A stretch of 53,729 nucleotides of DNA, taken from IMG/VR virus record IMGVR_UViG_3300044266_000287, positions 1 to 53,729 of that record; one strand, given 5' to 3'. Position numbers and translations under genes: made by a program. The notes beneath the pieces were generated by a model, which had not been told where the DNA came from, made no database searches, and saw only the letters and a list, made by a program, of their open reading frames with translations. The DNA comes from a virus (Duplodnaviria; Caudoviricetes). Shown piece after piece: positions 1-42,798 of this stretch; within the stretch, counting starts at the first letter, position 1, and each line of letters begins with the position of its first letter.

Positions 1-354
1 AATGTCTAAAAGGTTTAAAGAACCTTTCATCTTACCACCACAAACTTTATCTTCTATCATGTTGTTGCAAATATATTCATTCTCAACAACTTCACCTACG
101 GAACGAGCACGAAGGTTTAAGAAATAGTATTCAACATCAATTACTGGTAACTTATCAATATCAATATTTTCAGTAATTGTACAGTTTGTTAGTACCTGAC
201 GGACATTTCTTTCAATCGTTTCTTTATCATCTGCTTCCATAGCCATTAACAGATTTTTCTGTTCTTTAACTAAGAATGGCCTAAAACGAATCTGTTTTTT
301 AGAAAGTGGTAATTGAATCTCATATACCGGCACATCAATTTTTGGCAAAGCCAT
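1..354 (-). CDS. gp26: Baseplate hub assembly protein, T4 gp26-like (N-terminal part; runs off window edge)
   Basis: Not in ORF track. Manual translation from ATG at 354: MALPKIDVPVYEIQLPLSKKQIRFRPFLVKEQKNLLMAMEADD...FLNLRARSVGE..C. The 'LP.I..P.Y', 'RPFLVKE.K.LL.A' and 'RA.SVGE' motifs are typical of gp26. AGGAGA SD at 361-366 (minus strand). Confidence 0.85.
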   Translation of the reverse strand, partial: MALPKIDVPVYEIQLPLSKKQIRFRPFLVKEQKNLLMAMEADDKETIERNVRQVLTNCTITENIDIDKLPVIDVEYYFLNLRARSVGEVVENEYICNNMIEDKVCGGKMKGSLNLLDI

Positions 355-6294: not shown

Positions 6295-7038
6295 ATGGCA
6301 GATTTATCTTGGACAGAACCGGAATCAGCAGCAAATACTGACTATCAACCGGTATATCCATATAATAATATAACGCAGACCGAATCTGGTCATGCACTGG
6401 AACTAGACGATACGCCTGGTCGTGAGCGTATTCGTTTGACTCACGGAAAAGCCAATACTTTTATTGAATTACATCCTAATGGTGATGAAGTACATAAGAT
6501 ATATGGCAACGGATATGAAATTGTTCTGCAGGATAAAAATGTTCTAATTAAAGGTGTTTGTAATATTACTGTACAAGGTGATTCTGTATTTCATGTTAAA
6601 GGTGATTCATATCAACAAGTAGACGGTACAGTATATCAAAATGTTAAGGGTAATGTTAAACAGTTAGTTAATGGTAATTGTGAACAAACTATTAATGGTG
6701 ATTATGATATTAATGCTTCAGGTGATGTGAATGTCTCAGCAAAACATTTACAAGTCAATGGTGATTTGGCAGTTCGTGGTGACATTACAACTACACAAAG
6801 TGTATCTGCTGAAGGTAATATTTCTGCCGCCATGTCGGTATCAGCGGTGAAAAGTGTTGAGACTCCTGGTTTTATGGCAGCAGCCGGCATAATCACAGCA
6901 GGCGTTTCTATATTTGGTCCAATAGTATCTGATATATTTGGTTCAATAGAAGCACTTAGATTGAAGATTGATAGACACGTTCATATTGGTAATAAAGGAT
7001 TTCCAACAAGTCCTCCATCAAACGGATTCATGGAATAA
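6295..7038 (+). CDS. gp5: gp5 C-terminal beta-helix central spike with HxH apex
   Basis: 'W.EP...Y.P.YPYN...TESGH..E.DDTPG.ERI...H...TF.E..P.G', ~8-residue V.G repeats, C-terminal 'HVH...G.PTSPP'. Confidence 0.85.
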   Translation: MADLSWTEPESAANTDYQPVYPYNNITQTESGHALELDDTPGRERIRLTHGKANTFIELHPNGDEVHKIYGNGYEIVLQDKNVLIKGVCNITVQGDSVFHVKGDSYQQVDGTVYQNVKGNVKQLVNGNCEQTINGDYDINASGDVNVSAKHLQVNGDLAVRGDITTTQSVSAEGNISAAMSVSAVKSVETPGFMAAAGIITAGVSIFGPIVSDIFGSIEALRLKIDRHVHIGNKGFPTSPPSNGFME

Positions 7039-7041
7039 TAA

Positions 7042-7848
7042 ATGGGTATTTTTGCAAGATTAGGTTACTCTGGTAATACGCAATTTAATGGTGCGGACCA
7101 ACTCACGCCTGGCGTTATAAACCTATTAAACAATCAACCACAAAATTTAAAACAATGGCAAATCAATGATATTGCCAATGCTTCTGCCACAGGATACTAT
7201 CAGAATCCACATAATAATAATTTAGGTGCTCTTGCTGTGTTTGTTACTGGAATTATAGGTCTATCAAACACTACAACCTATAATTATAATGTTAATTCAT
7301 CATCTGCAAATACAATGGGTTCTGCTGCGTCTAATGCACAATCAGCTTTGACCAGTTTTACAACTCATACAAACAATTTATCTGGAGTTACCAATTCTTC
7401 AGATAGTTCTTTATATCCTGATTTAAATTCTGCTCTAAACATCGGCCGTCAGGTTTTAAATATAACAAATCAATCTGATGGTATACAGAATAATATTCCT
7501 ATTATTGGTAACTTTAGTAGTCTGTATATTGGAAATACATTAACAACTCTCACCAATGCAATTGCAAACGATTTCATTACATTAAGTCAATCAATTGGTG
7601 TGGATATGTCTGGTAATTTAACCAGTAATATATCAAACTCTGCAATGAATACTATTACAACAGATTTGACCAATTTGCAGACCACACTCAGTACACAACA
7701 AAATGCTGATATTTCTTTTTACCAGAATTCGTATGGTGTAGCAAAAGATTATACAACAACAACACAATTTAATAACTTGGGTGCAACTCAGAATAATTTG
7801 ATTACTTTAATTGGTACAACTAAACTTAAAACGGATTTGGCGTCATGA
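7042..7848 (+). CDS. Hypothetical virion-associated protein (Asn/Ser/Thr-rich, helical)
   Basis: Long ORF tightly coupled to both neighbours; no family recognised. Confidence 0.6.
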   Translation: MGIFARLGYSGNTQFNGADQLTPGVINLLNNQPQNLKQWQINDIANASATGYYQNPHNNNLGALAVFVTGIIGLSNTTTYNYNVNSSSANTMGSAASNAQSALTSFTTHTNNLSGVTNSSDSSLYPDLNSALNIGRQVLNITNQSDGIQNNIPIIGNFSSLYIGNTLTTLTNAIANDFITLSQSIGVDMSGNLTSNISNSAMNTITTDLTNLQTTLSTQQNADISFYQNSYGVAKDYTTTTQFNNLGATQNNLITLIGTTKLKTDLAS

Positions 7849-9857
7849 ACTATTCAATTTCCGTACCATTTTCAGCAATACAATTAGTCACACAATATGG
7901 TGCCAATGTTATTGTCGTTGGTTCAAGTGTAGTTTTACCTGACGGATCTACTGTTACATCGTCTTATGGTACAACTTCATACCCTCCAGATTTTGCTTAC
8001 AACCAAGCCAATGCGGCAACTTCATTAGCACAGGCTGCATATTCATATGCAAACACAATTTCTGGTGGTTCCGCTATTGATAATGTGGCAAGAACGTCTG
8101 CACAAACTGCTTTTGTATTGGCTAATACAGCAATAAACTATATTAATTCTAATAATGCATATTTTCAAACTGGTTACAATACTGCAAATACAGGATATAA
8201 TAATACATTATATTTACAAGGTGTTGACAATACTCAAAACAATGCCATTAATATTATTCAAGGTGTTGATACTTATCAAAATAATCAAATAACCTCACTC
8301 ACTACTTTTACACAAGCAGCCTTTAATACTGCTAATGCAAGTTCGCCTGCTGCAATACAAGCATCCTTCAATACTGCTAATGCCGCTTTTATACAAGCAA
8401 ATAATGCTTCATCAAATACAATATATTTACAAGGTGCTTTGGCCTCAGAAAATGCCAATTCAACTTTATTATTCACATATATTAATCAAGCCAATGCTAA
8501 CATTGGATTACTTCAATCTTATGTCACTCAATCAAATGCTAACATAAGTTTATTACAAGCTTATTCAAGTCAGGCTAACGCCAATATAGCTTTACTTCAG
8601 GCTTATGTAAATCAAAGTAATGCTAATATCAGTTTGTTGCAATCTTATTCTAACCAAGCTAACGCCAATATCGCTTTATTACAAACATATGCAAATCAAT
8701 CTAATGCAAATGTTGGATTGTTACAAACATACGCCAATCAGTCAAATGCTAACATAAGCTTACTTCAGGCTTATTCCAATCAAGCCAATGCTAATATTGT
8801 TTCATTACAAACGTATTCTAATCAAGCTAATGCTAATATAAGTTTACTACAAGCATATGCGAATCAGTCCAATGCCAATATAAGTTTATTACAAGCTTAT
8901 TCAAGTCAGGCTAACGCCAATATAGCTTTATTACAATCATATTCAAACCAAGCCAATGCCAATATTGTTTCATTATATTCTTATTCTGGTGCAGCATTTG
9001 CCAAAGCAAACAGTTCGTTGCAATTAAGTGGAACAACACAAACTGTAAGTAGTAACGTCACCATTCAAGGCAACTTATCAGTAACAGGTAATGTTTCTTA
9101 TACTGGTAACGTAACTACAATTCAAATTACTGGAAATACCGGTCAATTCTTTGGTTATACGGCGAATGGTTTTAATGCACTCTATGCTGGTATTCCTACT
9201 GGTTATTTTATTGAACCACAGATGGTCTATCAAATCACCAGTAATTATAATGGTTATACTGGTGGCATTAACATGCAGAATATTAATTCTGGTGCCAATG
9301 CCTCGGCGGATTTATTCATTACAGCAGACAACGGAACAATTAATGATGGTTATCTCGACTTAGGACTTGGATCAAGTACATACAATTATCCTGGTTACAG
9401 TCTAATAGGAAAAAATGATGGTTATCTATTTGTGACTGGAAATACAACTACTGGTGGTGGTAATACAATTATTGGCACCGGATTAAATAATGATGTTATA
9501 TTTACTTTAGGTGGAATTAATACAATAAATGAAGTTGCTCGTTTTAAATATAATACTGGTTTAGTAGTAAAACAACCAATTACATTTGTAGATAATACTA
9601 CTCAAAACACAGCTGCATCACCTGCATCATATTCTCAAGCAGCTTTTGCACAGGCCAATACTGCGCCAAGATATGTAAGTAGTTCAACTGCACCAGTAAG
9701 TCCAAGAGTTAATGACATGTGGTATGATACTGACAATGATGTTCTGCTTCGTTATACTAATGATGGCACTTCAAACAATTGGATAGATATTACAGGTCCA
9801 ATTTTTAGGTCTACTTTCATTAGACCAACATATCAAGTAACTGCTAACGTATCATAA
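7845..9857 (+). CDS. Fibre/adaptor protein: coiled-coil stalk, beta domain and C-terminal 'AP.SP..NDMWYD' module
   Basis: 12 Q[AS]NANxxLLQxYxN repeats; ~180-aa domain shared with 37499..39817; C-terminus paralogous to 35345..36202. Confidence 0.7.
   Translation: MNYSISVPFSAIQLVTQYGANVIVVGSSVVLPDGSTVTSSYGTTSYPPDFAYNQANAATSLAQAAYSYANTISGGSAIDNVARTSAQTAFVLANTAINYINSNNAYFQTGYNTANTGYNNTLYLQGVDNTQNNAINIIQGVDTYQNNQITSLTTFTQAAFNTANASSPAAIQASFNTANAAFIQANNASSNTIYLQGALASENANSTLLFTYINQANANIGLLQSYVTQSNANISLLQAYSSQANANIALLQAYVNQSNANISLLQSYSNQANANIALLQTYANQSNANVGLLQTYANQSNANISLLQAYSNQANANIVSLQTYSNQANANISLLQAYANQSNANISLLQAYSSQANANIALLQSYSNQANANIVSLYSYSGAAFAKANSSLQLSGTTQTVSSNVTIQGNLSVTGNVSYTGNVTTIQITGNTGQFFGYTANGFNALYAGIPTGYFIEPQMVYQITSNYNGYTGGINMQNINSGANASADLFITADNGTINDGYLDLGLGSSTYNYPGYSLIGKNDGYLFVTGNTTTGGGNTIIGTGLNNDVIFTLGGINTINEVARFKYNTGLVVKQPITFVDNTTQNTAASPASYSQAAFAQANTAPRYVSSSTAPVSPRVNDMWYDTDNDVLLRYTNDGTSNNWIDITGPIFRSTFIRPTYQVTANVS
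8485..8985 (+). repeat. Coding tandem repeat, 42-bp unit x12 (QANANISLLQAYSN-like)
   Basis: 12 Q[AS]NAN units counted in the translation; boundaries approximate. Confidence 0.9.
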
Positions 9858-9866
9858 GGATTAAAA

Positions 9867-10979
9867 ATGTCAGTTAATGAAGGGAATACAATACAATACA
9901 CAGTAGCTACTACTAAAGTTACTGATGGTACAACTTTGTATTGGAGAACTACAGGTAATGTAAATTATGGTCTTTGTGGTGCTTCTCAAATTTCTGGAAG
10001 TAACAATGGTACTATTGTTGTTACAAACAACCAAGGTGTGTTTAATGTTAGTTTAAATTTAAATCATTTTACTGACAACACAAGAACTTTAGGTATTGGA
10101 TTATCATCTACTCAATGGGGACCAATTATTGGTGCAACAGCACAATCAATTACTATTAATGATACATCTAGAAGTTCATATTCTATAGCTTATGCAGTAA
10201 TTGGCGGAGGAGGATCTCCAGGAACAGGAAATATTTACGGTGGCGGTGGTGCTGGAGGTGTAGTTACGGGTACGGCAACAGTCAATAGTAATTTAACTTA
10301 TACAATTACTGTTGGTGGCGGTGGCGCAAGCGCAGGTTCTCCAGGAAATTCAAGTGTATTAACCGGTCCCACTCCTTCGCCATTCAGTCCTGTTACTGCT
10401 TATGGTGGTGGAGGAGGAGGTAATGGTAATCCAACTACCGCACCAGGTGCCACCGGTAAAACTACTTGTGCTAGTGGTGGTGGTGGAGGCTATTATGTTC
10501 CTTCTCCCGGTACCGTAACGGCTGAACCTGGAGGAACAGCAGGACCACAAGGACATGCAGGGGGATATGGTGCAGCTTATTATAGTGCGACACCACCTAT
10601 AAGTCCTGTACAAAATTTTGCCGGAGGCGGAGGAGGTGGTGCTGGCGCTGCAGGAACCTCTGCAAGTTCATTACCAACTGCAGTTGGCGGATCGGGTGGA
10701 GCAGGAATAACTTGGCCTTATACTGGAGGAACTTATTATGCCGGAGGAGCAGGAGGTTCAGCTAGTGGATTTCCTAGTCCCGCAACACAAGGTTCCGGTG
10801 GTTTAGGATATAATTATTATGGCGGAGGTAATTCTTATCAAGGCGCTGTACTTTTAGCTATTCCCACTTCAAATTATCCTGGAAATCCTGCATACGCTCC
10901 TTTCGCAAGCGTTAATCCGCCAGCAGCACCAGGTTATACAATATTACTTTATTCGAGTTCTGGTACATACACCGCTTAA
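9867..10979 (+). CDS. Gly-rich adhesin-like protein with N-terminal Ig/Calx-beta-like domain
   Basis: N-terminal 'SVNEG.T..YTV.T....DGT.LYW...I.INDTS'; one module 'VIGGGG...GGGGAGG...YTITVGGGG...YYAGG...LAIP...SSGTYTA'. Confidence 0.7.
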   Translation: MSVNEGNTIQYTVATTKVTDGTTLYWRTTGNVNYGLCGASQISGSNNGTIVVTNNQGVFNVSLNLNHFTDNTRTLGIGLSSTQWGPIIGATAQSITINDTSRSSYSIAYAVIGGGGSPGTGNIYGGGGAGGVVTGTATVNSNLTYTITVGGGGASAGSPGNSSVLTGPTPSPFSPVTAYGGGGGGNGNPTTAPGATGKTTCASGGGGGYYVPSPGTVTAEPGGTAGPQGHAGGYGAAYYSATPPISPVQNFAGGGGGGAGAAGTSASSLPTAVGGSGGAGITWPYTGGTYYAGGAGGSASGFPSPATQGSGGLGYNYYGGGNSYQGAVLLAIPTSNYPGNPAYAPFASVNPPAAPGYTILLYSSSGTYTA

Positions 10980-10990
10980 AGGTAAATTAA

Positions 10991-11731
10991 ATGGCATTTC
11001 CAACTTCACCTGCAAATAATCAATTTGCTATCGTCAACGGCATAGAGTATGTATGGAATGCTACCAAAGGTGCGTGGTACCGTTATGGCGATGCTACCGT
11101 TAATATAATTACAGCAAATACTTTTCAACCATTAAGTAATATTGTTTTTTCTGATTCTTCAATACAAACTTCTGCTTACAACACCAGTTTACAAATATAT
11201 TTCTCAAATACAACAGGATCATCATCATATACAACTGGTGCAATTACTATTAATGGTGGAGTTGGTATTTCTGGAAACATTTATTCCGGTGGAATTATTT
11301 CTTCTAGTGGAAATATTATTTCTAGTGGAAACATATATTCCAATGGAATATCTTCAAACACAATTGTGTCCGCATCAAATATAGCAAATAATTCTGTTGG
11401 TTATTTGGGATTACCACAAAATATAGTATCATTAAATTATACCTTAGTTATTACCGATTCAGGTAAACACATTTATATGACACAATCGGCCAACACAGGT
11501 AATTTGACTATTCCACAGAATTCATCAGTTCCATTTCCTGTTGGAACAATTATCACTTTAGTAAATTCACCATCTTATTCATCTAATATTGTTAATACAG
11601 GAACGGCAACTTTATATGTTGTTGCAAATTCTACTCCTAGAACAAGTATACAAATTGGAAGTTTTGGTATCGCATCTTTAATTAAAATTGCATCAGATAC
11701 TTGGTATGTGTCCGGTTCAGGAATAACTTAA
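10991..11731 (+). CDS. Short fibre/adaptor protein
   Basis: N-terminal 'MAFPTSP.N.Q..IVNG..Y.W' module; 'GG.GISGN' repeats; C-terminal 'YTL..TD.GK...TIP.N.SV.FP.GT...LIK...DTW...G' domain seen at phage fibre tips. Confidence 0.65.
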   Translation: MAFPTSPANNQFAIVNGIEYVWNATKGAWYRYGDATVNIITANTFQPLSNIVFSDSSIQTSAYNTSLQIYFSNTTGSSSYTTGAITINGGVGISGNIYSGGIISSSGNIISSGNIYSNGISSNTIVSASNIANNSVGYLGLPQNIVSLNYTLVITDSGKHIYMTQSANTGNLTIPQNSSVPFPVGTIITLVNSPSYSSNIVNTGTATLYVVANSTPRTSIQIGSFGIASLIKIASDTWYVSGSGIT

Positions 11732-12705
11732 TGGGTCATTTTTTTGTTTTTAATCCTTCTTCGAGCACAACTTCACCACCAGGTGCAACATATACGCTTA
11801 ATTATTTAATAGTGGCTGGTGGAGGCGCAGGAAATCCAACTTCCTTAGGAGGATTTTTTGGAGGTGGTGGAGGTGCTGGGGGATTTATTTGTTCTTGTCT
11901 AACGGTCACAACTGGAGTACCATATGTAATTACTGTTGGATCCGGAGGTAGTGTAAGTGCTTACCCAATTGCAAGTAGTTCAAATGGAACTTCTTCAAGT
12001 ATTTCTGCACCATCTGTACCAAGTTTTACTGTTAGATCCGCAGTAGGTGGTGGTCATGGAGCTACTGGGAGTGCTACTGGTGGTGCAGGTGCTACGGGTG
12101 GATCGGGCGGTGGCGGTACAGGTTATCAATGTAGTCCTCCTGCATGTAATTCACATTTAGGTTTAGCGGTAGGAAGTCCTGGCCAAGGGGTTGCAGGTAC
12201 ACAAGGATATCCTGGCGGATCAGGAAATCCAAGTAGTTCCGGTGGAGGAGGAGGAGCCGGAGGATCAGGAGGAACTGGTTGTTTTAGAGGCGGTAATGGT
12301 GGACTAGCAAAAATTTGGACATATACTGGACTTTATTATGCGGGTGGTGGTGGAGGAGGCGCATATTATCCTACTGCACCAATATCACCACAAAAATTTG
12401 GTTACGGTGGCGGACAACCTCCAGCCAGTCCTTCACTTAAAGGTGGTGGAGGTGACGGCAGTAGTCCTACATGTAGACCCGGCAAAGCGGGTACTCCTGG
12501 TACCGGGGGTGGAGGTGGTGGTGCAAATTACGGAACATCTCCAAGAAGTTGTGGAGGCAACGGCGGAAGTGGTGTAGTTATTTTAGCTGTGCCTACTGCA
12601 AATTATCCCGGATCGGCTCCTGGTGCTACAGTAACTTGTGCTCCTCCATCATATCCAGGATTTAAATTAATAACGTATACTTCTTCAGGCAATTATATTG
12701 CTTAA
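11731..12705 (+). CDS. Gly-rich adhesin-like protein (one module)
   Basis: Start at the TAATG overlap (ATG 11731) is more plausible than 11701; 'YLIVAGGG...GGGGAGG...YYAGGGGG...VILAVP...YPGSAPG...SSGNYIA'. Confidence 0.7.
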   Translation: MGHFFVFNPSSSTTSPPGATYTLNYLIVAGGGAGNPTSLGGFFGGGGGAGGFICSCLTVTTGVPYVITVGSGGSVSAYPIASSSNGTSSSISAPSVPSFTVRSAVGGGHGATGSATGGAGATGGSGGGGTGYQCSPPACNSHLGLAVGSPGQGVAGTQGYPGGSGNPSSSGGGGGAGGSGGTGCFRGGNGGLAKIWTYTGLYYAGGGGGGAYYPTAPISPQKFGYGGGQPPASPSLKGGGGDGSSPTCRPGKAGTPGTGGGGGGANYGTSPRSCGGNGGSGVVILAVPTANYPGSAPGATVTCAPPSYPGFKLITYTSSGNYIA

Positions 12706-12803: not shown

Positions 12804-13193
12804 ATGGCAATGAATTACATTTACTCAGACTTAGATTTAACCTTTCTCCCATCACCGGCGACAGGTGATGTGTCTTTGAAGTATAACGAACAAGCAGTCA
12901 TCAGGTCTATTCGTAACTTACTATCAACCAGTCTATACGAGAGACCATTTCAACCAGAGGTTGGAAGTACATTAAACGCATTACTATTTGAACCAATCAC
13001 ATCAATTACTGCCACTTTGATTGAAAATGAAATAGTTCGTATGATTAAAAACTACGAACCAAGAGCAACAGTAAGTCAACTCAATGTGACGGCTAATCCA
13101 GATGGTAACGCATTTAATGTAGCACTATATGTTTACATTGGTAATCAGACAACACCAACAGCAATTAATCTATTATTACAGAGGACCAGATAA
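12804..13193 (+). CDS. gp25: Baseplate wedge subunit / sheath initiator
   Basis: 'YSDLDL.F...P.TGD......AV.RSIRNL..T..YERPFQP..GS....LLFE...YEPR'. Confidence 0.93.
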   Translation: MAMNYIYSDLDLTFLPSPATGDVSLKYNEQAVIRSIRNLLSTSLYERPFQPEVGSTLNALLFEPITSITATLIENEIVRMIKNYEPRATVSQLNVTANPDGNAFNVALYVYIGNQTTPTAINLLLQRTR

Positions 13194-35344: not shown

Positions 35345-36202
35345 ATGTCACTTATTAATTTTCCTTCCTCACCTACACTATATCAAACATTCACAGTTGG
35401 TACAAAGACTTGGATTTGGAATGGTTACGCATGGGATTTACAAATTGCCAATACGGCATCAATAACTGCTTATGCAAATTTAGCTTTTACTCAAGCAAAT
35501 ACAGCAAGTGCTAATACTGTATACCTTCAAGGGGCATTAAATACTGCTAATGCCAATACGGTATACTTACAAGGTGGTTTAAACTCAGCTAATGCTAACA
35601 TAAGTTTACTACAAGCATATTCAAATCAAGCTAATGCAAATATTGGATTACTACAAGCCTACTCCAATCAGGCAAATGCCAATATAAGTCTATTACAATC
35701 TTATGTAAACCAATCAAATGCAAACATAAGTTTACTTCAAGCATATGCAAATCAAAGTAATGCTAACGTTACTTTATTGCAAGCCTACTCCAATCAAGCC
35801 AATGCTAATATAAGTCTATTACAATCTTATGTAAACCAAGCCAATGCTAATATTAGTTTGTTACAGGCTTATTCCAATCAAGCCAATGCTAACATAAGTT
35901 TACTCCAAAGTTATTCTAATCAGGCCAATGCCAATATTGCTTATAGTATTGGTGTTGATTTATCTCAGAATACAACAATTCAAGCCGCTTTTAATAAAGC
36001 AAATACAGCATTTAAATATACAACTAGTGCAACAAGACCTACAGGAAATACTGTAGGTGATTTATGGTATAGTACTGGAGATGACACAATTTACCAATAC
36101 ACATATGATGGAGTAAGTAATAATTGGATTGATATTACAGGTCCAATTTTAAGAACTTCTAATATTCTTGTTCAATATACAATTGCTGCTAACGTAAGTT
36201 AA
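35345..36202 (+). CDS. Adaptor/stalk protein
   Basis: N-terminal 'INFPSSPT..QT......W.WNG.AW'; ~10 14-aa repeats; C-terminal 'GDLWY..DD..Y.YT.DG.SNNWIDITGP...YTIAANVS'. Confidence 0.7.
   Translation: MSLINFPSSPTLYQTFTVGTKTWIWNGYAWDLQIANTASITAYANLAFTQANTASANTVYLQGALNTANANTVYLQGGLNSANANISLLQAYSNQANANIGLLQAYSNQANANISLLQSYVNQSNANISLLQAYANQSNANVTLLQAYSNQANANISLLQSYVNQANANISLLQAYSNQANANISLLQSYSNQANANIAYSIGVDLSQNTTIQAAFNKANTAFKYTTSATRPTGNTVGDLWYSTGDDTIYQYTYDGVSNNWIDITGPILRTSNILVQYTIAANVS
35540..35945 (+). repeat. Coding tandem repeat, 42-bp unit x~10
   Basis: xANANISLLQAYSN units counted in the translation; boundaries approximate. Confidence 0.9.
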
Positions 36203-36211
36203 GGATTAAGA

Positions 36212-37468
36212 ATGTCAATTAATGAAGGACAAACGATACAATACACAGTAACTACGACCAATACGGCCGATGGTACTGTATTATATTGGAAAACTACAGG
36301 AAATGTTCATTTAGACCAAATAGCAAATAGCAATGGTACAATGACTGTTGTAAATAACCGAGCAACTTTTAATGTAACAACACTTGTAAACCATATTACT
36401 GATGGAAATAATATTATAGGTATTAGTTTGTCTACAGGTTCTTTAACTGGACCTGCTGTCGTGAATACTGCAAATCCAATTTTAATCAATGATACTTCAT
36501 TATCACCTGCTCCATATAGTATAAATTATCTAGTAGTTGGTGGTGGTGGATCTGCCGGATTTGCTGGTTGTGTCTCATCTGCAGGCGGAGGTGGTGCGGG
36601 TGGTGTACTGTCCGGAAGTACAATACTATCCGGAGGAGTTTATTCAATTACCGTTGGAGCTGGTGCAGCAGGATCAACTGTGGGTGGAGATCCTAGTACT
36701 CCAGGTAATAATGGAACTAATAGCATAATTTATAATAACTGTACGAGTTCTAATGTGGCAGTTGCTTTTGGTGGTGGTTTTGGCGCTGGTGGTTCATACA
36801 ATAGAGGTCCGTGGATTAGCACTGGTAATCCTGGAGGATCCGGAGGAGGAGGAGGAGCCCAAGGCGCATCCGCCTGTACAGCAAATAATTCATCTTATGG
36901 ACCACTCTCTCCTCCAGCATATGTTGTCGGTGGAGCAGGATATAATTATCCAGGACCAACTCAACAAGGATATCCTGGTGGTAACGGAAAAGTTGTCAGA
37001 TACAACTGGTGTGTGCCAGGGCCTGGGATGGCTGCGTTTGCAGGTGGCGGCGGCGGTGCAGGTGCTGCAGGATATTCTTCAACACCAAGTCGTTCGGGTG
37101 CAGGCGGTAACGGTTATACTTGGCCATATACTGCAAACACCTATGGTGGTGGCGGTGCTGGTGGAGGCGGTTATTACTGTGGTGCTACTATTAGTGGAGG
37201 AACTGGCGGAGGTGGACCATCTGGACCATTCTCACCAACTTACTATACAAACACCGGATCTCCTGGTGTTCAAAATACAGGAGGTGGAAGTGGCGCTGGT
37301 TCAGCTGGTTGTAATCGTCCATCAGGTGGTTCAGGTATAGTAATCTTGGCCGTACCAGTTGCTGGATATCCAGGTTCTGCTCCTGGTGCTACTGTAACTT
37401 GTGCACCACCAAGTTATCCTGGAGTAAAGTTGATAACATACACCACATCAGGCACCTACACGGCTTAA
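36212..37468 (+). CDS. Gly-rich adhesin-like protein with N-terminal Ig/Calx-beta-like domain
   Basis: Paralogue of 9867..10979 (MSINEGQTIQYTV...DGTVLYW); one Gly-rich module ending TSGTYTA. Confidence 0.7.
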   Translation: MSINEGQTIQYTVTTTNTADGTVLYWKTTGNVHLDQIANSNGTMTVVNNRATFNVTTLVNHITDGNNIIGISLSTGSLTGPAVVNTANPILINDTSLSPAPYSINYLVVGGGGSAGFAGCVSSAGGGGAGGVLSGSTILSGGVYSITVGAGAAGSTVGGDPSTPGNNGTNSIIYNNCTSSNVAVAFGGGFGAGGSYNRGPWISTGNPGGSGGGGGAQGASACTANNSSYGPLSPPAYVVGGAGYNYPGPTQQGYPGGNGKVVRYNWCVPGPGMAAFAGGGGGAGAAGYSSTPSRSGAGGNGYTWPYTANTYGGGGAGGGGYYCGATISGGTGGGGPSGPFSPTYYTNTGSPGVQNTGGGSGAGSAGCNRPSGGSGIVILAVPVAGYPGSAPGATVTCAPPSYPGVKLITYTTSGTYTA

Positions 37469-37498: not shown

Positions 37499-39817
37499 AT
37501 GGCATTTCCAACATCACCAGCAAATAATCAAACAGCTATAGTCAATGGCATTGTTTATCAATGGAATGCTACGCTTGGTGTTTGGAAAAGAAATGGTTCC
37601 GTAGATTCAATTTCTGTTGGGCAATATATTGCTTTTTCAGGAACATCATCATCATCAAACACATCAGGATCTTTAATTGTTTCCGGTGGTGCAGGTATTA
37701 CAGGTAATGTATATACAGGAAGTGTTGTACTTACTGGTTCAGGAAATGGCATCACCTTTGTTGATGGTACAACACAAACTTCTGCGGCAAATTTAGTACC
37801 ACTTAATGCTAACATAAGTTTACTCCAATCATATTCAAACCAAGCTAATGCTAATATAACATATTTACAAGGTGCTTTGGCCTCAGAAAATGCCAATTCA
37901 ACTTTATTATTTTCATATTCAAACCAAGCTAATGCCAATATTGCTCTATTGCAGGCTTATTCAAATCAAGCTAACGCCAACATAAGTTTACTTCAGGCAT
38001 ACTCTAATCAGGCAAATGCTAATATTGGACTGTTACAGGCTTATTCAAACCAAGCTAATGCTAATATTGTTTTGTTGTTTGGTATAGAAAATAGTCAAAA
38101 TGCTAATATTGGACTGTTACAGGCTTATTCAAACCAAGCCAATGCTAACATAAGTTTATTACAATCCTATGTAAACCAAGCAAACGCTAATATTGTTTCA
38201 CTACAAGCATTAGCAAATACAGATTATACAACACTAACGGCTACTGCTGGTGTTTATGGTAATTCATCATATGTTCCAGTAATTACTTTGGCGGCCAATG
38301 GTCGTATAACATCAATTACTAATACTGCAATTACTGGAGGAGGTTCTTCATCCGGTTATCAAGCAAATACAATTCTAGTTGCCAATTCTGCTGGTTATGT
38401 TAGTAACTCAAATTTATTCTTTACTGTATCCAATAATAATTTAATAGTAGCAAATAGTATTATAACTGGTGGTGGTACAGGCGGTAGTATTATTGGTGCC
38501 AATGTTATTTCTGCCAATACTATTGTACTTTCAGGTACAATCACAACAGGTAGTGGTGTAGGTGGTAATATTAGTGGTGCAAATATTATTTCAGCTAACA
38601 CAGTCAATGTTAGTACAGCTTTAATATTCCCTGACGGTACAATACAATATACAGCCAATGGTGGTGCAAACATTGTTTCAAATATTGCTTTGTTACAATC
38701 TTATTCTAATCAAGCTAATGCTAATATTGGTTTATTGCAAGCATATTCTAACCAAGCTAATGCTAACATAAGTTTATTACAATCTTATGTAAATACTTCA
38801 AATGCAAATGATGTTATGTTGTTTGCAAACGTTGCATCATTAAACACATATTCTCAAGCTGCTTTTGCTAAAGCAAATACATCATTACAGCTTTCAGGCA
38901 CAACACAAACTGTAAGTAGCAACGTCACTATTCAAGGTAATCTATCCGTAACAGGTAACGTAGTATATACTGGTAATGTAACCTCTGTACAGATTACAGG
39001 TAACACAGGACAATTCTTCGGTTACTCTGCAAACGGATTTAATGCTTTCTATTCTGGTATTCCTACTGGTTATCTACTTGAACCACAGATTGTAAACCAA
39101 ATCACCAGCAACTTTAATGGTTATGCTGGTGGCATTAACATGCAGAATATTAATTCTGGTTCTAATGCTTCTTCAGATTTGTTTATCTCTGCTGATAACG
39201 GAACAATCAATGACGGATTCTTAGACTTAGGTTTAGCATCTTCAACATACAATTATCCTGGTTATAATTTAATTGGGAAGAACGATGCATACTTCTTTGT
39301 AACCGGTAACACCACAACTGGTGGTGGTAACATGATTATCGGTACCGGTGCACCAAACGATATTATCTTTACTGCAAACGGAATTACTACAACAAATGAA
39401 GTGATGCGTGTCTCTGCTTCAGGTAATAATGTAACAATTAAAACAAACGTACCAAGTTCATCAAATACTACTGGTTCATTGAAAGTTGTTGGTGGTGTAG
39501 GTGTTACAGGTAACGTATATGCAAATAGAATATATACTAATGGTCTGTTTTGGGCTGCAAATGGTAATGTAATTTCAACTGGCGGTAGTTCTGGTCCGGT
39601 AAATACATCTGCAGCAACACCACCAGCAACAGGAAACAATGTTAATGATATCTGGTACAACACTACAAATGATGTAGCATATCGTTATACATATGATGGT
39701 ACTAATTATTATTGGGTTGACGTTATTGGACCAACAGTAACAGTACTAGCAAATGCAACTTATTCAACAATATCATCAAGTAGAGCAATTGCTTTCTCCT
39801 TGATTTTTGGAGGTTAA
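37499..39817 (+). CDS. Long fibre/adaptor protein
   Basis: N-terminal MAFPTSP module; two blocks of 14-aa repeats; ~180-aa domain shared with 7845..9857; 'NDIWYN' module; ends RAIAFSLIFGG. Confidence 0.7.
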   Translation: MAFPTSPANNQTAIVNGIVYQWNATLGVWKRNGSVDSISVGQYIAFSGTSSSSNTSGSLIVSGGAGITGNVYTGSVVLTGSGNGITFVDGTTQTSAANLVPLNANISLLQSYSNQANANITYLQGALASENANSTLLFSYSNQANANIALLQAYSNQANANISLLQAYSNQANANIGLLQAYSNQANANIVLLFGIENSQNANIGLLQAYSNQANANISLLQSYVNQANANIVSLQALANTDYTTLTATAGVYGNSSYVPVITLAANGRITSITNTAITGGGSSSGYQANTILVANSAGYVSNSNLFFTVSNNNLIVANSIITGGGTGGSIIGANVISANTIVLSGTITTGSGVGGNISGANIISANTVNVSTALIFPDGTIQYTANGGANIVSNIALLQSYSNQANANIGLLQAYSNQANANISLLQSYVNTSNANDVMLFANVASLNTYSQAAFAKANTSLQLSGTTQTVSSNVTIQGNLSVTGNVVYTGNVTSVQITGNTGQFFGYSANGFNAFYSGIPTGYLLEPQIVNQITSNFNGYAGGINMQNINSGSNASSDLFISADNGTINDGFLDLGLASSTYNYPGYNLIGKNDAYFFVTGNTTTGGGNMIIGTGAPNDIIFTANGITTTNEVMRVSASGNNVTIKTNVPSSSNTTGSLKVVGGVGVTGNVYANRIYTNGLFWAANGNVISTGGSSGPVNTSAATPPATGNNVNDIWYNTTNDVAYRYTYDGTNYYWVDVIGPTVTVLANATYSTISSSRAIAFSLIFGG
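37805..38210 (+). repeat. Coding tandem repeat, 42-bp unit x~10 (second shorter block near 38680-38830)
   Basis: xNANIxLLQAYSN units in the translation; boundaries approximate. Confidence 0.85.
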
Positions 39818-39818
39818 A

Positions 39819-40172
39819 ATGACAGCACCTAATATTGCTGCACTCGTTAACATTTACGGAAATACAGCCACATTTTTGGCCAATACTATCACATCAACAT
39901 TTCTTACAAATGCTACCAATAGTTCTACCGTGATTAAGGTTAACTCCATTGTGGCAGCAAACTATTCATCAAATACAGTCAATACATATATTGATTTATA
40001 TCGTGGTGGTGTTGGTTATCCTATGGCAAACACTCAAGTACCTCCTAACTCAACAATGGTCATATCAGGTAAAGATATGGTATTCTATATGGTTGAAGGA
40101 GATTCTCTGAGAGCATCTGCTAATGCTAACACTGCACTTTCAATTACCAGTTCTTATGAGACTATCAGTTAA
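39819..40172 (+). CDS. Small beta-sandwich linker protein
   Basis: ATG 39819 follows a GGAGGT SD formed by the upstream Gly-Gly codons; 'APNI.......G.T...KVNSI..AN...VP..ST.....K....Y..EGD.LR...SYE.IS'. Confidence 0.65.
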   Translation: MTAPNIAALVNIYGNTATFLANTITSTFLTNATNSSTVIKVNSIVAANYSSNTVNTYIDLYRGGVGYPMANTQVPPNSTMVISGKDMVFYMVEGDSLRASANANTALSITSSYETIS

Positions 40173-42280
40173 TGCGTACAAGAGGTAATGGCGGCATCAT
40201 TGGTAAAGCAATCATACCAGGTAAAGCTGGTGGGGGAATGGTTACGTCTCAGGATGCTACTGAAGCTTCTTTAGCAGGTTCATGGCCAGGTTCTGTAAAC
40301 TCCAACATTTATGGAATTAATCTTTCTGTTGCTACAGTATCTAATGTTGTAGTTACCAGTTCTAGTTATAGCAATACCTATGGAGCTATTTCTTCAGGTT
40401 CCTATATCAAATTATATGGTACTAATTTCACAACTAATACTATTGTTACAGTTAATTCCAATATAGTACCATTAGCAAATATTACCTATTTTAGTTCTAA
40501 TCAGTTAAATATTGCTTTACCAACAATTGCAAACACAGTTAATATAGCTTTTGCAGTCTCCAATTATGTTGCTTCATCAGCAACACCAGCATCTTTTGCA
40601 GGAGCGGCAATACCAGGACAATACTTGGTTGTGTCTGGTGGTGGCGGTGGCGGAGGAGGTACTGGTGGTGGTGGAGGTGGTGGAGGAGTATTAACCGGTC
40701 CAATATATTTTCCAGTAGGTACAACATATACAATTACTGTTGGTGCTGGAGGATCGAATGGTACAGGACCAACTAGAGGAGGTTCTGGTTTTAGTTCAAA
40801 TATTATTAGTAGTGGAACTACAGTCGTTTCATCTTCTGGTGGCGGCGGAGGCGGTACAGGAGGAAATAACTGTTTAACTAATGCATCAGGAAATTCAGGA
40901 GGTTCGGGAGGTGGAGGCGGAGGTAATAACGTTTATCTCGGAATACACCCAGGTGGTGCCGGTACACCAGGACAAGGATACGCAGGCGGAACAGGAGATT
41001 ATACTTCACCCTATTATGCTGGCGCAGGAGGTGGTGGCGCAGGCGGTGCAGGAACTTCCGTACCTGCAGGTACATCATTAGCTGGACCTGGAGGTTCAGG
41101 CGTCACATGGTCATATACAGCAAACACATATGCTGGAGGTGGAGGCGGATCAACTAATGCTGGAGGTACCGCAGGAACTGGCGGATCTGGCGGTGGAGGA
41201 AATGGTAAAGTTGGAAGTTTTGTTGGATGTGCTGGAGTAAATAATTCAGGTGGCGGAGGTGGTTCTGGTGGAGGAATAACATCAACACTTGGTGCAGCAG
41301 GCGGTTCAGGCATTGTTGCTTTAGCAATACCCACATCATGTGTTCCGGCAGTTCAATATCCAGGTGCTGTAGCGACAACACCTCCTGCAGCACCAGGTAT
41401 GACAGTATTGACCTGGAATTCAAGTGGATCATTTATTACAAAACCACCAGTAGTATTGTACTATCTTGTTGTTGCTGGTGGTGGTGCAGGTGGTGGTGCA
41501 CCAGGTGGTAGTCCCGGAACTTCACTTGGTGGTGGCGGCGGAGCTGGAGGATTATTACAAGGTTCAACACCTATTGTACCAGGAACCACATACACAATTA
41601 CAGTAGGTGGTGGCGCATCATCATTAACGATTAACGGAAGTCCAAGTTCATTGGCTGCACCCACAATGTCAACTGTATCGACTACAGGTGGCGGTATTGG
41701 TGGAGGACAATCTTCTACTCCTACCACAAGTGACAACGGTTCTCCAGGAGGTTCGGGTGGTGGAGGTGGTATCAATAGTGGACCTGTCACAATAGGATTA
41801 GCTACTGGTAGTCCGGCTGTTGGTGTTGCTGGCACTCAAGGATATCCAGGGGGTACAAACTCTACACCAGCAAACTACGGTACTGGTGGTGGCGGTGGTG
41901 CCACAGCAGCTGGCGGAGCAGGAACGGGAAGTCAATCTGGTGCCGGTGGTACCGGATATACTTGGACATACACAGGTAGTACATACGCAGGTGGAGGCGG
42001 CGGTAGTATATCCGGTTATGGTGCTACTGCAAATTCTGGCGGATCAGGAGGAGGTGGAAATGGTGGAACATCACCAACTACTGGTGGAAGTGCTGGATCA
42101 CCCGGTACAGGAGGCGGTGGTGGTGGTAACGCATATGCTGGTGGTAGCGGTGTAGTCATCTTAGCAGTTCCAACTCCAGCTTATCCAGGTTCGGCTCCAG
42201 GTGCCACAGTTACAACACCACCTGCAGCACCAGGAATGACCGTGTTAACATACACATCATCCGGTACATACACGGCTTAA
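40172..42280 (+). CDS. Gly-rich adhesin-like protein: IPT/TIG-like domain plus two Gly-rich modules
   Basis: N-terminal 'NGGIIG...W.G'; 'YIKLYGTNF...VTVN...YFSS.QL...LP'; two 'YLVV.GGG...LA.P..YPG' modules. Confidence 0.7.
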   Translation: MRTRGNGGIIGKAIIPGKAGGGMVTSQDATEASLAGSWPGSVNSNIYGINLSVATVSNVVVTSSSYSNTYGAISSGSYIKLYGTNFTTNTIVTVNSNIVPLANITYFSSNQLNIALPTIANTVNIAFAVSNYVASSATPASFAGAAIPGQYLVVSGGGGGGGGTGGGGGGGGVLTGPIYFPVGTTYTITVGAGGSNGTGPTRGGSGFSSNIISSGTTVVSSSGGGGGGTGGNNCLTNASGNSGGSGGGGGGNNVYLGIHPGGAGTPGQGYAGGTGDYTSPYYAGAGGGGAGGAGTSVPAGTSLAGPGGSGVTWSYTANTYAGGGGGSTNAGGTAGTGGSGGGGNGKVGSFVGCAGVNNSGGGGGSGGGITSTLGAAGGSGIVALAIPTSCVPAVQYPGAVATTPPAAPGMTVLTWNSSGSFITKPPVVLYYLVVAGGGAGGGAPGGSPGTSLGGGGGAGGLLQGSTPIVPGTTYTITVGGGASSLTINGSPSSLAAPTMSTVSTTGGGIGGGQSSTPTTSDNGSPGGSGGGGGINSGPVTIGLATGSPAVGVAGTQGYPGGTNSTPANYGTGGGGGATAAGGAGTGSQSGAGGTGYTWTYTGSTYAGGGGGSISGYGATANSGGSGGGGNGGTSPTTGGSAGSPGTGGGGGGNAYAGGSGVVILAVPTPAYPGSAPGATVTTPPAAPGMTVLTYTSSGTYTA
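41348..41435 (+). repeat. 88-bp exact direct repeat, copy 1 (copy 2 at 44760-44847)
   Basis: gcagttcaatatccaggtgct...caagtggatcattta identical in both; a further 34-bp identity just upstream (41298-41331 = 44710-44743). Confidence 0.9.
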
Positions 42281-42468: not shown

Positions 42469-42798
42469 ATGGGAATTGCATACAAAGTCTTAGGACAAGC
42501 CAATCCAACTGCCAACACAAATACAACCTTGTATACGGTACCTTCACTTACTAATACTGTAGTTAGTACCATTACTATTTGTAATCAAGCAAATACTCCT
42601 GCTTGGTTTAATATTGCTGTTCAACCTGCTGGCGCTTCATTAGTTTCTAAAAATTATATCAATTATAATACTCCTGTTCCAGGAAATGATACAATCTCTT
42701 TAACACTTGGTATTACTTTAGGAAACACCGATATTGTTTCTTGTAATGCCAATACCAGCACAGTAAGTTTCAACGTATTTGGTAGTGAGATTAGTTAA
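42469..42798 (+). CDS. Small beta-sandwich linker protein
   Basis: TAAGGA SD; 'YKVLGQ..P.A.T.T.LYTVP.....VVSTI.ICN...YI.Y......D......GITL..TD......SF..FG.EIS'; same size, slot and C-terminal E.IS-like ending as 39819..40172. Confidence 0.7.
   Translation: MGIAYKVLGQANPTANTNTTLYTVPSLTNTVVSTITICNQANTPAWFNIAVQPAGASLVSKNYINYNTPVPGNDTISLTLGITLGNTDIVSCNANTSTVSFNVFGSEIS

What the first reader, a model, noticed from the sequence alone, without database searches (positions are those of the whole stretch)
9790..9960. Ig-like domain apparently split across an in-frame stop codon (junction 1)
Seen: 7845..9857 ends PTYQVTANVS-TAA, then GGA TTA AAA, then ATG SVNEGNTIQYTV in the same frame (9-nt spacer). 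Recalled pattern: Calx-beta/Ig-like domains in phage proteins usually read continuously as 'TYsV.....SVNEG..V.FTV'. Inference: the first beta-strand is on the upstream protein and the rest on the downstream one. This suggests donor-strand complementation between two gene products, or stop-codon readthrough giving a fused minor form. The spacer is also a TAAGGA SD, so independent translation is likely.
Basis: partly seen in the sequence, partly recalled or inferred. Interest (0 to 1): 0.75.

Follow-up and report, generated by a model that had tools for sequence, protein, structure and literature searches.

The report
Ig domain split between fibre genes
In a T4-like freshwater phage, the first beta-strand of an Ig-like domain sits at the end of a tail-fibre gene and the rest of the domain starts the next gene (a receptor-binding tip protein), a conserved split that probably lets the two proteins snap together.

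Summary
ORF 7845..9857 ends ...PTYQVTANVS-TAA, followed by GGATTAAAA and the ATG of ORF 9867..10979 (MSVNEG...), all in one frame.

The same-frame layout is not special here: 9 of 30 gene junctions in the window share a frame and 4 of 30 have a 9-nt gap.

The domain split is real and conserved:
- A paralogous junction lies at 36200/36212.
- In all, 31 junctions (22 distinct sequences) carry TAA + 9 nt + ATG.
- More distant relatives carry the same strand in cis.
- Some cis forms (L119: TYNITANVS-SLNEG) equal the window minus exactly 15 nt (TAA GGA TTA AAA ATG).
- Fully fused fibre-Ig-Gly-rich proteins exist (P0103, P0170). One lies on the same contig as two split pairs.
- The 23 split domains form one clade.

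The downstream protein carries a Pam3-gp24-like glycine-rich receptor-binding domain.

Best reading: one ancient gene fission inside the A-A' loop. The fibre's C-terminal strand then completes the tip protein's Ig domain in trans and docks it. The docking is inferred, not shown.

Readthrough is unlikely. The stop is TAA in 22 of 22 junctions, the spacer evolves like a ribosome-binding site rather than like codons, and no RNA structure was found.

The parts
7845..9857 (+). Fibre protein gene (670 aa), the donor. It has NANI(S/A)LLQ-type repeats, a middle domain and a C-terminal 'W..D' module, and its last residues form strand A.
   Evidence: no Pfam family; C-terminal 70 aa conserved in alignment A3.
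9714..9800 (+). 'DMWYDT...NNWIDITGP' module that precedes the donor strand. It is a widespread fibre repeat module.
   Evidence: the A3 profile gave 3467 library hits at E<=0.001, with up to 22 stretches per protein.
9828..9854 (+). Donor strand TYQVTANVS. It is homologous to strand A of the Ig-like domain in cis and fused relatives.
   Evidence: Alignment A2. The AF2 fused model has a strand at residues 62-68, with pLDDT about 90 for that block. Y is invariant (TAT/TAC), N invariant (AAC/AAT) and the last Ser uses TCN/AGT codons.
9855..9857 (+). TAA stop of the fibre gene; it overlaps the Shine-Dalgarno sequence (TAAGGA).
   Evidence: TAA in 22 of 22 distinct junctions.
9858..9866 (+). 9-nt spacer GGATTAAAA, a ribosome-binding site. 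With the stop and the ATG it makes the 15 nt that cis relatives lack.
   Evidence: GGA in 22 of 22; variants TTA/CTA/ATA and AAA/AGA/GAA; third positions invariant. L119 lacks exactly these 15 nt.
9867..10166 (+). Acceptor: an Ig-like beta-sandwich (residues 1-100) that lacks its first strand.
   Evidence: In the AF2 model of the protein alone, the domain aligns to solved Ig-like domains 5-13 residues later than the fused model does.
10173..10979 (+). Glycine-rich (TNF-like + Gly-rich) tip domain, the presumed receptor-binding part.
   Evidence: Pfam PF21722, 31.1 bits against a cutoff of 24.3. VIA-align: Bxb1 tail tip 9d93_Qa Z 9.8 and Pam3 fibre 7ypx_A Z 9.1.
35345..36202 (+). Second donor fibre gene (285 aa), ending VQYTIAANVS-TAA (donor strand 36173..36199).
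36203..36211 (+). Second 9-nt spacer, GGATTAAGA.
36212..37468 (+). Second acceptor (418 aa): a strand-less Ig-like domain followed by Gly_rich_2.
   Evidence: Pfam PF21722, 48.6 bits.

Best explanation
A fibre-plus-tip gene that once encoded one polypeptide was split once. The order in that polypeptide was fibre shaft, 'W..D' module, Ig-like domain, distal receptor-binding domain. Fifteen nucleotides (TAA GGA TTA AAA ATG = stop, Shine-Dalgarno site, start) now sit in the loop between strand A and strand A' of the Ig-like domain. The two genes are translated separately. The fibre protein (7845..9857) ends with strand A. The tip protein (9867..10979) begins with an Ig-like sandwich that lacks that strand.

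Inferred step: in the virion, the fibre's C-terminal strand inserts into the tip protein's incomplete sandwich. This is strand complementation in trans, in the same geometry as the unsplit relatives, and it attaches the tip to the fibre. The same arrangement works at the second pair, 35345..36202 and 36212..37468.

Shown: the split, its conservation, its single origin, the cis and fused relatives, and protein-level selection on the strand. Inferred: physical complementation, and its role as the docking mechanism.
For: 1. Cis relatives. In the other 49 of 58 IMG/VR loci and 59 of 79 metagenome loci, the frame stays open upstream of the NEG motif. Most have a TY.[IV] strand 10-12 residues before it. 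L119 reads TYNITANVS-SLNEG, which is the window minus 15 nt.
2. Fused relatives. P0103, P0104, P0112, P0043, P0123, P0013 and P0170 carry the same W..D module, strand, Ig domain and Gly_rich_2 in one protein. P0103 matches the read-through translation at 42% identity over 185 residues, with a 5-residue gap exactly at *GLKM. P0170 lies on the same contig as two split pairs.
3. Single origin. The 23 split domains form one clade (SH-aLRT 95, one change). They sit beside the 9 fused forms in a group of 37 (support 84) among 102 domains.
4. Selection on the strand. In 22 distinct junctions Y, N and the hydrophobic I/V are kept through synonymous changes, and the final Ser switches between TCN and AGT. 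Of the best 150 library representatives, 26 end exactly with this strand.
5. Models. In the AF2 read-through model (pLDDT 86.2, pTM 0.70) the upstream strand falls in the block with pLDDT about 90. Solved Ig-like domains align from model residue 58-65, so the alignments take in all or part of that strand (3gin 370-501). The acceptor alone aligns from 381.
6. Complex prediction: weak support. The score was 0.36 and the best of 3 controls 0.15. That mark was reached by 58 of 80 solved complexes and 2 of 110 mismatched pairs, but at 0.60 or under by only 7 of the 80 and by both mismatches that passed. The runs agree in at least 68% of contacts and the partner's pLDDT is at least 62. My own alignments were used.
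7. No other docking element. Split-clade tip proteins start directly at strand A' (15 of the 16 nearest homologues fetched start M[PSA][VIL]NE).
8. Coupling. Donor strand type (RPTY.. or ..QYTI..) matches the acceptor's B-C loop type ([RK][VI].DG or NTADG) in 23 of 23 junctions. Meanwhile the rest of the domain and the tip type are shuffled: 6 changes each, and the AU test rejects type-I monophyly at p 0.008.
Against: - No binding was measured, and the complex prediction is only a weak pass.
- AF2 still models the acceptor alone as a sandwich (pLDDT blocks 62-89), so it may be stable without the strand. The higher pLDDT in the fused model is confounded by a different alignment.
- The cis model inherits the strand position from cis homologues in its alignment, so it shows homology rather than trans binding.
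- The 23 of 23 coupling can be explained by tight linkage (about 100 nt).
- I named the strand types after I had seen the first tree.
- The stoichiometry and geometry on a presumably trimeric shaft are untested.
- I could not inspect the contacts in the models.
Confidence: 0.62

Rival explanations
1. Relic of a fission without complementation. The two proteins no longer share a domain. The acceptor sandwich is stable without strand A, the fibre's tail has another role or none, and the tip attaches some other way.
For: AF2 folds the acceptor alone as a sandwich with pLDDT blocks of 62-89. Complex prediction gave only weak support. The strand and B-C loop coupling can be explained by linkage.
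Against: The C-terminal strand is kept at protein level through synonymous change in 22 distinct junctions and ends 26 of the best 150 representatives. A useless tail would be expected to decay or be trimmed. The tip proteins have no other N-terminal element.
Confidence: 0.2
2. Recoding. A fraction of ribosomes reads through the TAA, or hops from the last sense codon to a matching codon after the ATG. This makes a fused fibre-tip protein, and that product is what selection maintains.
For: Same frame with no further stop in the 9-nt spacer at both window junctions and in all 22 distinct junctions. At 9852-9872 the codon before the stop and the codon after the ATG are both TCA. The fused product would resemble natural fused proteins.
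Against: - The stop is TAA in 22 of 22, and TAA ends 28 of 30 genes in the window. From recall, TAA is the least leaky stop.
- In the spacer, the third positions of GGA, TTA and AAA never vary, while first and second positions do. That is the reverse of a coding pattern.
- The same frame follows automatically from a 15-nt insertion, and the 9-nt length fits Shine-Dalgarno spacing.
- Matching take-off and landing codons occur in 1 of 22 junctions.
- Four junction RNAs fold no better than shuffles (z -1.5 to +0.97).
- The window has no tRNA gene, though the record is only about 32% complete.
Confidence: 0.05
3. Cassette boundary. The junction is conserved mainly because it is a recombination linker that lets phages exchange distal tips between fibres. 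The split exists to make tips separately exchangeable genes. This does not exclude complementation.
For: Nucleotide identity between the two window junctions peaks at 0.85 over -13..+46, against about 0.45-0.6 in the flanks. Split acceptors carry either Gly_rich_2 (L001, L005, both window copies) or RCC1-like propellers (L002, L003, L004, L010). All four combinations of strand type and tip type occur. The distal Ig part has a history different from the strand type (AU p 0.008).
Against: The inferred exchanges lie downstream of the B-C loop, not at the gene boundary. Strand type and B-C loop type are never separated (23 of 23). Tip classes for 15 of the 23 rows rest on a crude motif count, not on Pfam; 1 further row was left unclassified.
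Confidence: 0.1

Closest known systems
Unsplit homologues: fibre-Ig-Gly-rich proteins P0103, P0104, P0112, P0043, P0123, P0013 and P0170 (L140:6001-7380)
   Same: Same order of W..D module, strand A, Ig-like domain and Gly_rich_2. P0103 is 42% identical across the junction. P0170 lies in the same kind of fibre gene cluster, on one contig with two split pairs.
   Different: One polypeptide, with an A-A' loop 5 residues shorter and no stop, Shine-Dalgarno site or start inside the domain.
Donor-strand complementation of chaperone-usher pilins (recalled knowledge; PMC10104325 was seen only as a search listing)
   Same: An Ig-like subunit that lacks one strand is completed by a strand from a neighbouring polypeptide.
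   Different: In pilins the missing strand is the C-terminal G strand, supplied by an N-terminal extension, with a chaperone and an usher. Here the missing strand is the N-terminal A strand, supplied by a C-terminal tail, and no chaperone is identified. Complementation is inferred here, not shown.
Salmonella phage S16 / T-even gp37-gp38 fibre-adhesin pair (as described in passages of PMC9608196; PMC6957217 seen only as a listing)
   Same: A separate adhesin gene next to the fibre gene; the adhesin has a glycine-rich receptor-binding domain and sits at the fibre tip.
   Different: gp38 attaches by three short alpha-helices on a hydrophobic platform. Here the attachment module is a strand-deficient Ig-like domain whose missing strand is on the fibre.
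Cyanophage Pam3 fibre gp24 (7ypx) and a Bxb1 tail-tip chain (9d93_Qa)
   Same: The Gly-rich part of the 9867 product (residues 103-341) matches them at Z 9.1 (28% identity, 153 aligned, rmsd 4.0) and Z 9.8 (29%, 160 aligned, rmsd 3.8). In Pam3 this TNF-like plus Gly-rich unit is proposed to recognise the host receptor.
   Different: Pam3 gp24 joins the unit to an alpha-helical shaft in one chain, with no Ig-like adaptor and no split.
Calx-beta / CBD1 and other Ig-like sandwiches (3ead, 3gin, TEP1r MG domain 2pn5, intimin 6tqd)
   Same: The fold of the reconstituted domain: Z 8.1-9.2, 87-103 residues aligned, rmsd 2.3-3.1, 8-18% identity.
   Different: No Pfam Calx-beta match for the window's domain. 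Z values around 8 are common for Ig-like folds.
Programmed recoding: Q-beta A1 readthrough and T4 gene 60 bypass (recalled)
   Same: An in-frame stop between two coding segments whose fusion would make sense.
   Different: A TAA stop, a spacer that evolves like a ribosome-binding site, no conserved take-off and landing pair (1 of 22) and no RNA structure.

Membership tests
Pfam Gly_rich_2 (PF21722) | Score above the curated cutoff. | tested here: met
   9867 product: 31.1 bits against 24.3, residues 103-326. 36212 product: 48.6 bits.
Pam3 gp24-like TNF-like + Gly-rich receptor-binding unit | Structural match over most of the unit. | tested here: met
   7ypx_A: Z 9.1, 153 aligned, rmsd 4.0, 28% identity, model residues 103..341. 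It and 9d93_Qa are the two rows above the Ig-like background. The receptor-binding function was not tested.
Pfam Calx-beta (PF03160) | HMM match of the Ig-like domain. | tested here: not met
   No family for the window's read-through segment at E<=0.01, and none but Gly_rich_2 for the whole protein at E<=0.1. Only 4 of 49 alignment members hit Calx-beta (best 1.2e-07) and 5 of 49 hit Ig_3.
Calx-beta-like / Ig-like beta-sandwich fold | Structural similarity that includes the first strand. | tested here: inconclusive
   3ead Z 8.4, 3gin Z 8.1 and 2pn5 Z 9.2 over model residues 59/61..173/176. Z near 8 is the usual background for such folds.
Donor-strand complementation systems | An acceptor domain that lacks one strand of its sandwich. 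| tested here: met
   The acceptor alone aligns to solved domains 5-13 residues later than the fused model: 3gin 381 against 370, 3ead 451 against 442, 2pn5 109 against 99, 6tqd 568 against 555, 1row 8 against 3. Cis relatives carry the strand. This rests on models and alignments.
Donor-strand complementation systems | The missing strand is present on a partner polypeptide. | tested here: met
   The fibre's C-terminus TYQVTANVS aligns with strand A of cis and fused forms.
Donor-strand complementation systems | Physical insertion of the donor strand in trans. | tested here: inconclusive
   Complex prediction: weak support, 0.36 against a best control of 0.15 (counts as given in the For line). 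No experiment.
Donor-strand complementation systems | A dedicated chaperone or usher. | not tested
   No candidate was sought. This may not apply to phage assembly.
Gene fission (Rosetta-stone) pair | A fused homologue with the same order of parts, and adjacent split genes. | tested here: met
   The split forms are one clade.
Programmed stop-codon readthrough | A leaky stop, a coding-type conservation pattern downstream of it, and a stimulatory context. | tested here: not met
   TAA in 22 of 22. Spacer third positions are invariant while first and second positions vary. Fold z-scores of -1.5 to +0.97. Translation itself was not measured.
Translational bypass (gene 60 type) | Matching take-off and landing codons flanking the gap. 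| tested here: not met
   A match (TCA/TCA) in 1 of 22 distinct junctions, the window's own.

The most novel reading that the evidence does not exclude
The split Ig-like domain is a natural two-piece docking system with a specificity code. Two orthogonal pairs exist: type I, RPTY.. strand with a [RK][VI].DG loop, and type II, ..QYTI.. strand with an NTADG loop. They would direct different tip proteins (Gly-rich or RCC1-like) to two different fibres of one virion. Tips are shuffled by recombination just beyond the interface. If so, phage fibre tips could be exchanged simply by keeping a 9-residue tag and its roughly 25-residue partner.
Probability: 0.25. Interest if true: 0.8.

Novelty: new variant of a known kind. 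Interest (0 to 1): 0.6.

Why it matters
How separately encoded receptor-binding tips attach to phage fibres is known for few systems. Here the sequence itself names the interface: a 9-residue strand on the fibre and a strand-deficient Ig-like domain on the tip, with natural fused versions as a built-in control. That makes the docking mechanism directly testable with two small constructs. It could also explain how tips of different kinds (Gly-rich, RCC1-like) are carried by the same adaptor in a large group of uncultured freshwater T4-like phages. If confirmed, it would be a case of donor-strand-type assembly outside bacterial pili. I found no such report for phage fibres.

Tried and rejected
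- tblastn and blastn of the region against the GenBank phage collection gave no match. The Gly-rich query may have been masked.
- Sequence search of solved structures with the Ig-domain profile gave only cadherins, at E 0.07-0.98.
- Suppressor tRNA: there is no tRNA gene in the window, but the record is about 32% complete, so this is not informative.
- RNA structure at the junction: four junctions gave z -1.5, 0.97, 0.57 and 0.66.
- Hop between matching codons: 1 of 22 junctions.
- Sequencing runs: 3 DNA holders kept as contigs and no RNA holder listed. I did not lay them.
- Literature: five searches for strand complementation or gene fission in phage fibres found nothing on point. The library lacks most subscription journals, and supplements are closed.
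- One search contained one mis-located row (L076, my coordinate slip). I repeated it correctly as and used only that result.
- The pLDDT comparison between the acceptor alone and the fused model is confounded by different alignments, and I had no third fold job.
- I could not read residue contacts from either model.
Full report
**Observation**

One search shows ...ACA TAT CAA GTA ACT GCT AAC GTA TCA TAA GGA TTA AAA ATG TCA GTT AAT GAA GGG..., with the stop at 9855-9857 and the ATG at 9867. ORF 7845..9857 (670 aa) ends RPTYQVTANVS. ORF 9867..10979 (370 aa) starts MSVNEGNTIQYTV, in the same frame.

The frame relation alone means little. Of 30 consecutive + strand junctions in the window, 9 share a frame, 4 have a 9-nt gap and 28 end in TAA. 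The spacer holds AAGGA six bases before the ATG, which is an ordinary ribosome-binding site.

**Setting**

The window is a whole IMG/VR virus record of 53.7 kb, estimated to be about 32% complete. It carries a T4-type baseplate module: a gp5-like gene at 6295, gp25 at 12804 and gp6 at 13193.

The upstream protein has long NANI(S/A)LLQ-type repeats and no Pfam family. The downstream protein has a roughly 100-residue N-terminal domain followed by Pfam Gly_rich_2 (31.1 bits, cutoff 24.3).

A model of the whole downstream protein (pLDDT 80.9) matches two solved chains over residues 103-341. These are a Bxb1 tail-tip chain (9d93_Qa, Z 9.8, 29% identity) and the Pam3 fibre gp24 (7ypx_A, Z 9.1, 28% identity). 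In Pam3 the TNF-like plus glycine-rich unit is proposed to recognise the host receptor, and it is likened to adhesin gp38 of phage S16 (passages of PMC9608196). The downstream gene therefore most likely encodes a distal, receptor-binding tip protein.

**The split is real and conserved**

- A paralogous junction lies in the same window. ORF 35345..36202 ends VQYTIAANVS-TAA, followed by GGATTAAGA and ATG(36212)-SINEGQTIQYTV.
- Of 16 nearest homologues fetched, 15 start at M[PSA][VIL]NE.
- In IMG/VR, 9 of 58 related loci have the same junction. In metagenome contigs, 20 of 79 do.
- With the window's two, that makes 31 junctions and 22 distinct 135-nt sequences. All have TAA, a 9-nt spacer and ATG.
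- In every other locus (49 and 59) the frame stays open upstream. Most have a TY.[IV] strand 10-12 residues before the NEG motif.
- Some cis forms are almost letter for letter the window without the insert. L119 reads ACT TAC AAT ATA ACT GCT AAT GTA AGC | AGT TTA AAT GAA GGT (TYNITANVS-SLNEG). The window has TAA GGA TTA AAA ATG at the bar.

**Fused homologues exist**

I searched longer proteins with the read-through translation. This found P0103, P0104, P0112, P0043, P0123 and P0013, which carry the same W..D fibre module, the strand, the Ig-like domain and Gly_rich_2 in one chain. P0102 and P0146 have an RCC1 part instead of Gly_rich_2.

BLASTP of the read-through translation against P0103 gives 42% identity over 185 residues, with a 5-residue gap exactly at *GLKM. 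A further fused gene, P0170 (L140:6001-7380, 459 aa), lies on the same contig as two split pairs.

On a tree of 102 Ig-like domains, the 23 split ones form one clade (SH-aLRT 95, one change). They lie with the 9 fused forms and 5 cis forms in a group of 37 (support 84). The tree is unrooted and has few columns. Because the cis state is found all around the split clade, I read this as one fission event.

**Selection**

In the 22 distinct junctions, the upstream strand keeps its residues through synonymous change:
- Y in 22 of 22 (TAT/TAC)
- I/V in 22 of 22
- N in 22 of 22 (AAC/AAT)
- a final S or A, with Ser encoded by both TCN and AGT

The spacer behaves the opposite way. GGA is invariant, and the third positions of all three 'codons' never vary. 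First and second positions do vary (TTA/CTA/ATA and AAA/AGA/GAA). That is the pattern of a ribosome-binding site, not of translated codons.

A profile of the last 70 residues finds 3467 library proteins, because the W..D module is a common fibre repeat. Among the best 150, 26 (including the window's own) end exactly with ..[TQ]Y.[IV][TS]AN.. as their C-terminus.

**Structure**

The read-through segment (184 residues, 49-row alignment) folds with pLDDT 86.2 and pTM 0.70. Residues 62-68 (TYQVTAN) form a strand in the block with pLDDT about 90, and the linker block scores 79.

Solved Ig-like domains align from model residue 58-65, so they take in all or part of the upstream strand:
- TEP1r MG domain, Z 9.2
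- intimin D00, Z 8.5
- CALX CBD1, Z 8.4
- NCX1 CBD1, Z 8.1, 18% identity

The acceptor alone aligns to the same chains 5-13 residues later: 3gin 381 against 370, 3ead 451 against 442, 2pn5 109 against 99, 6tqd 568 against 555, 1row 8 against 3. So the fibre's tail corresponds to the first strand of the fold.

Three limits apply. These Z values are ordinary for Ig-like folds. The cis model takes its strand position from cis homologues in its alignment. I could not inspect contacts.

Complex prediction of the N-domain with the last 70 fibre residues gave weak support. The score was 0.36 against a best control of 0.15. The tool's calibration is quoted in full under the evidence for the best explanation.

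**Against recoding**

- TAA in 22 of 22 junctions.
- Spacer pattern as described above.
- The same frame follows automatically from a 15-nt insertion.
- Matching codons for a hop occur in 1 of 22 junctions, the window's own TCA/TCA.
- Four junction RNAs fold no better than shuffles.
- No tRNA gene in the window, though the record is incomplete.

**Modularity**

Split acceptors carry either Gly_rich_2 (L001, L005, both window copies) or RCC1-like propellers (L002, L003, L004, L010). A cruder motif count over all 23 rows left one row unclassified. It shows all four combinations of strand type and tip type.

There are two donor types, RPTY.. and ..QYTI... They pair with two B-C loop types of the acceptor, [RK][VI].DG and NTADG, in 23 of 23 junctions. 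Each of the three contigs with two junctions has one pair of each type.

The part of the Ig-like domain after LYW does not follow these types. It needs 6 changes on the tree, and the AU test rejects type-I monophyly (p 0.008). The groups came from sequence motifs, but I named them after I had seen the first tree.

So exchange happens just beyond the presumed interface, while the strand and its presumed neighbour stay together. This fits co-adaptation, but linkage over about 100 nt can also explain it. Identity between the window's two junctions peaks at 0.85 over -13..+46, against about 0.5 in the flanks.

**Verdict**

The most likely account is a single gene fission inside the A-A' loop of an Ig-like adaptor domain between fibre and tip. 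The fibre's C-terminal strand then completes the tip protein's domain in trans and attaches it.

The fission, its conservation and the fused relatives are shown. The trans complementation is inferred (confidence 0.62).

I found no report of such a mechanism for phage fibres in five searches of the held library.

Noticed in passing
window 36173..36214 (ORFs 35345..36202 and 36212..37468): A second, paralogous split junction in the same window: VQYTIAANVS-TAA-GGATTAAGA-ATG-SINEG. It is the type II strand and loop pair, whereas the finding's junction is type I.
   Followed up: yes
window 37499..39817: A third fibre protein (772 aa) has the same W..D module near its end but finishes ...ATYSTISSSRAIAFSLIFGG. 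A similar ..LIALNMFFGG ending occurs in library protein P0227. This may be a different kind of C-terminal docking tail.
   Followed up: no
window 11731..12705, 40172..42280, 42798..45704: Further glycine-rich-domain proteins without the Ig-like adaptor. One has a single unit. By eye, the other two have two and three tandem units, each ending ..SSG.[FY].. . The two large ones are each preceded by a small ORF of 109-121 aa (39807..40172 and 42469..42798).
   Followed up: no
L002, L003, L004, L010 (IMG/VR loci), downstream ORFs from the junction ATG: The same strand-less Ig-like adaptor is followed by RCC1-like beta-propellers instead of a glycine-rich domain (Pfam RCC1 at 1e-29 to 1e-45). The adaptor therefore carries at least two kinds of tips.
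   Followed up: partly
window 9714..9800 and library hits: The 'GD.W.DT...Y......W.DI.GP' module before the donor strand is a very common repeat in large fibre-like proteins. There were 3467 hits at E<=0.001, with up to 22 stretches in one protein.
   Followed up: partly
L097, L098, L109, L119, L090 (metagenome loci): These relatives have a complete Ig-like domain near the N-terminus, preceded by a 30-40-residue leader (for example MPFVTRIPFAFGSFSRRKFG.. and MGIKSTKTGSPFSNIFSRTKSEG..). The leader may be an alternative way of attaching the same kind of tip.
   Followed up: no
P0122 (library protein, a donor-type fibre): It carries Pfam Mtd_N (the major tropism determinant N-terminal domain, E 6.8e-13) at its N-terminus. 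The window's donor proteins did not reach this model.
   Followed up: no
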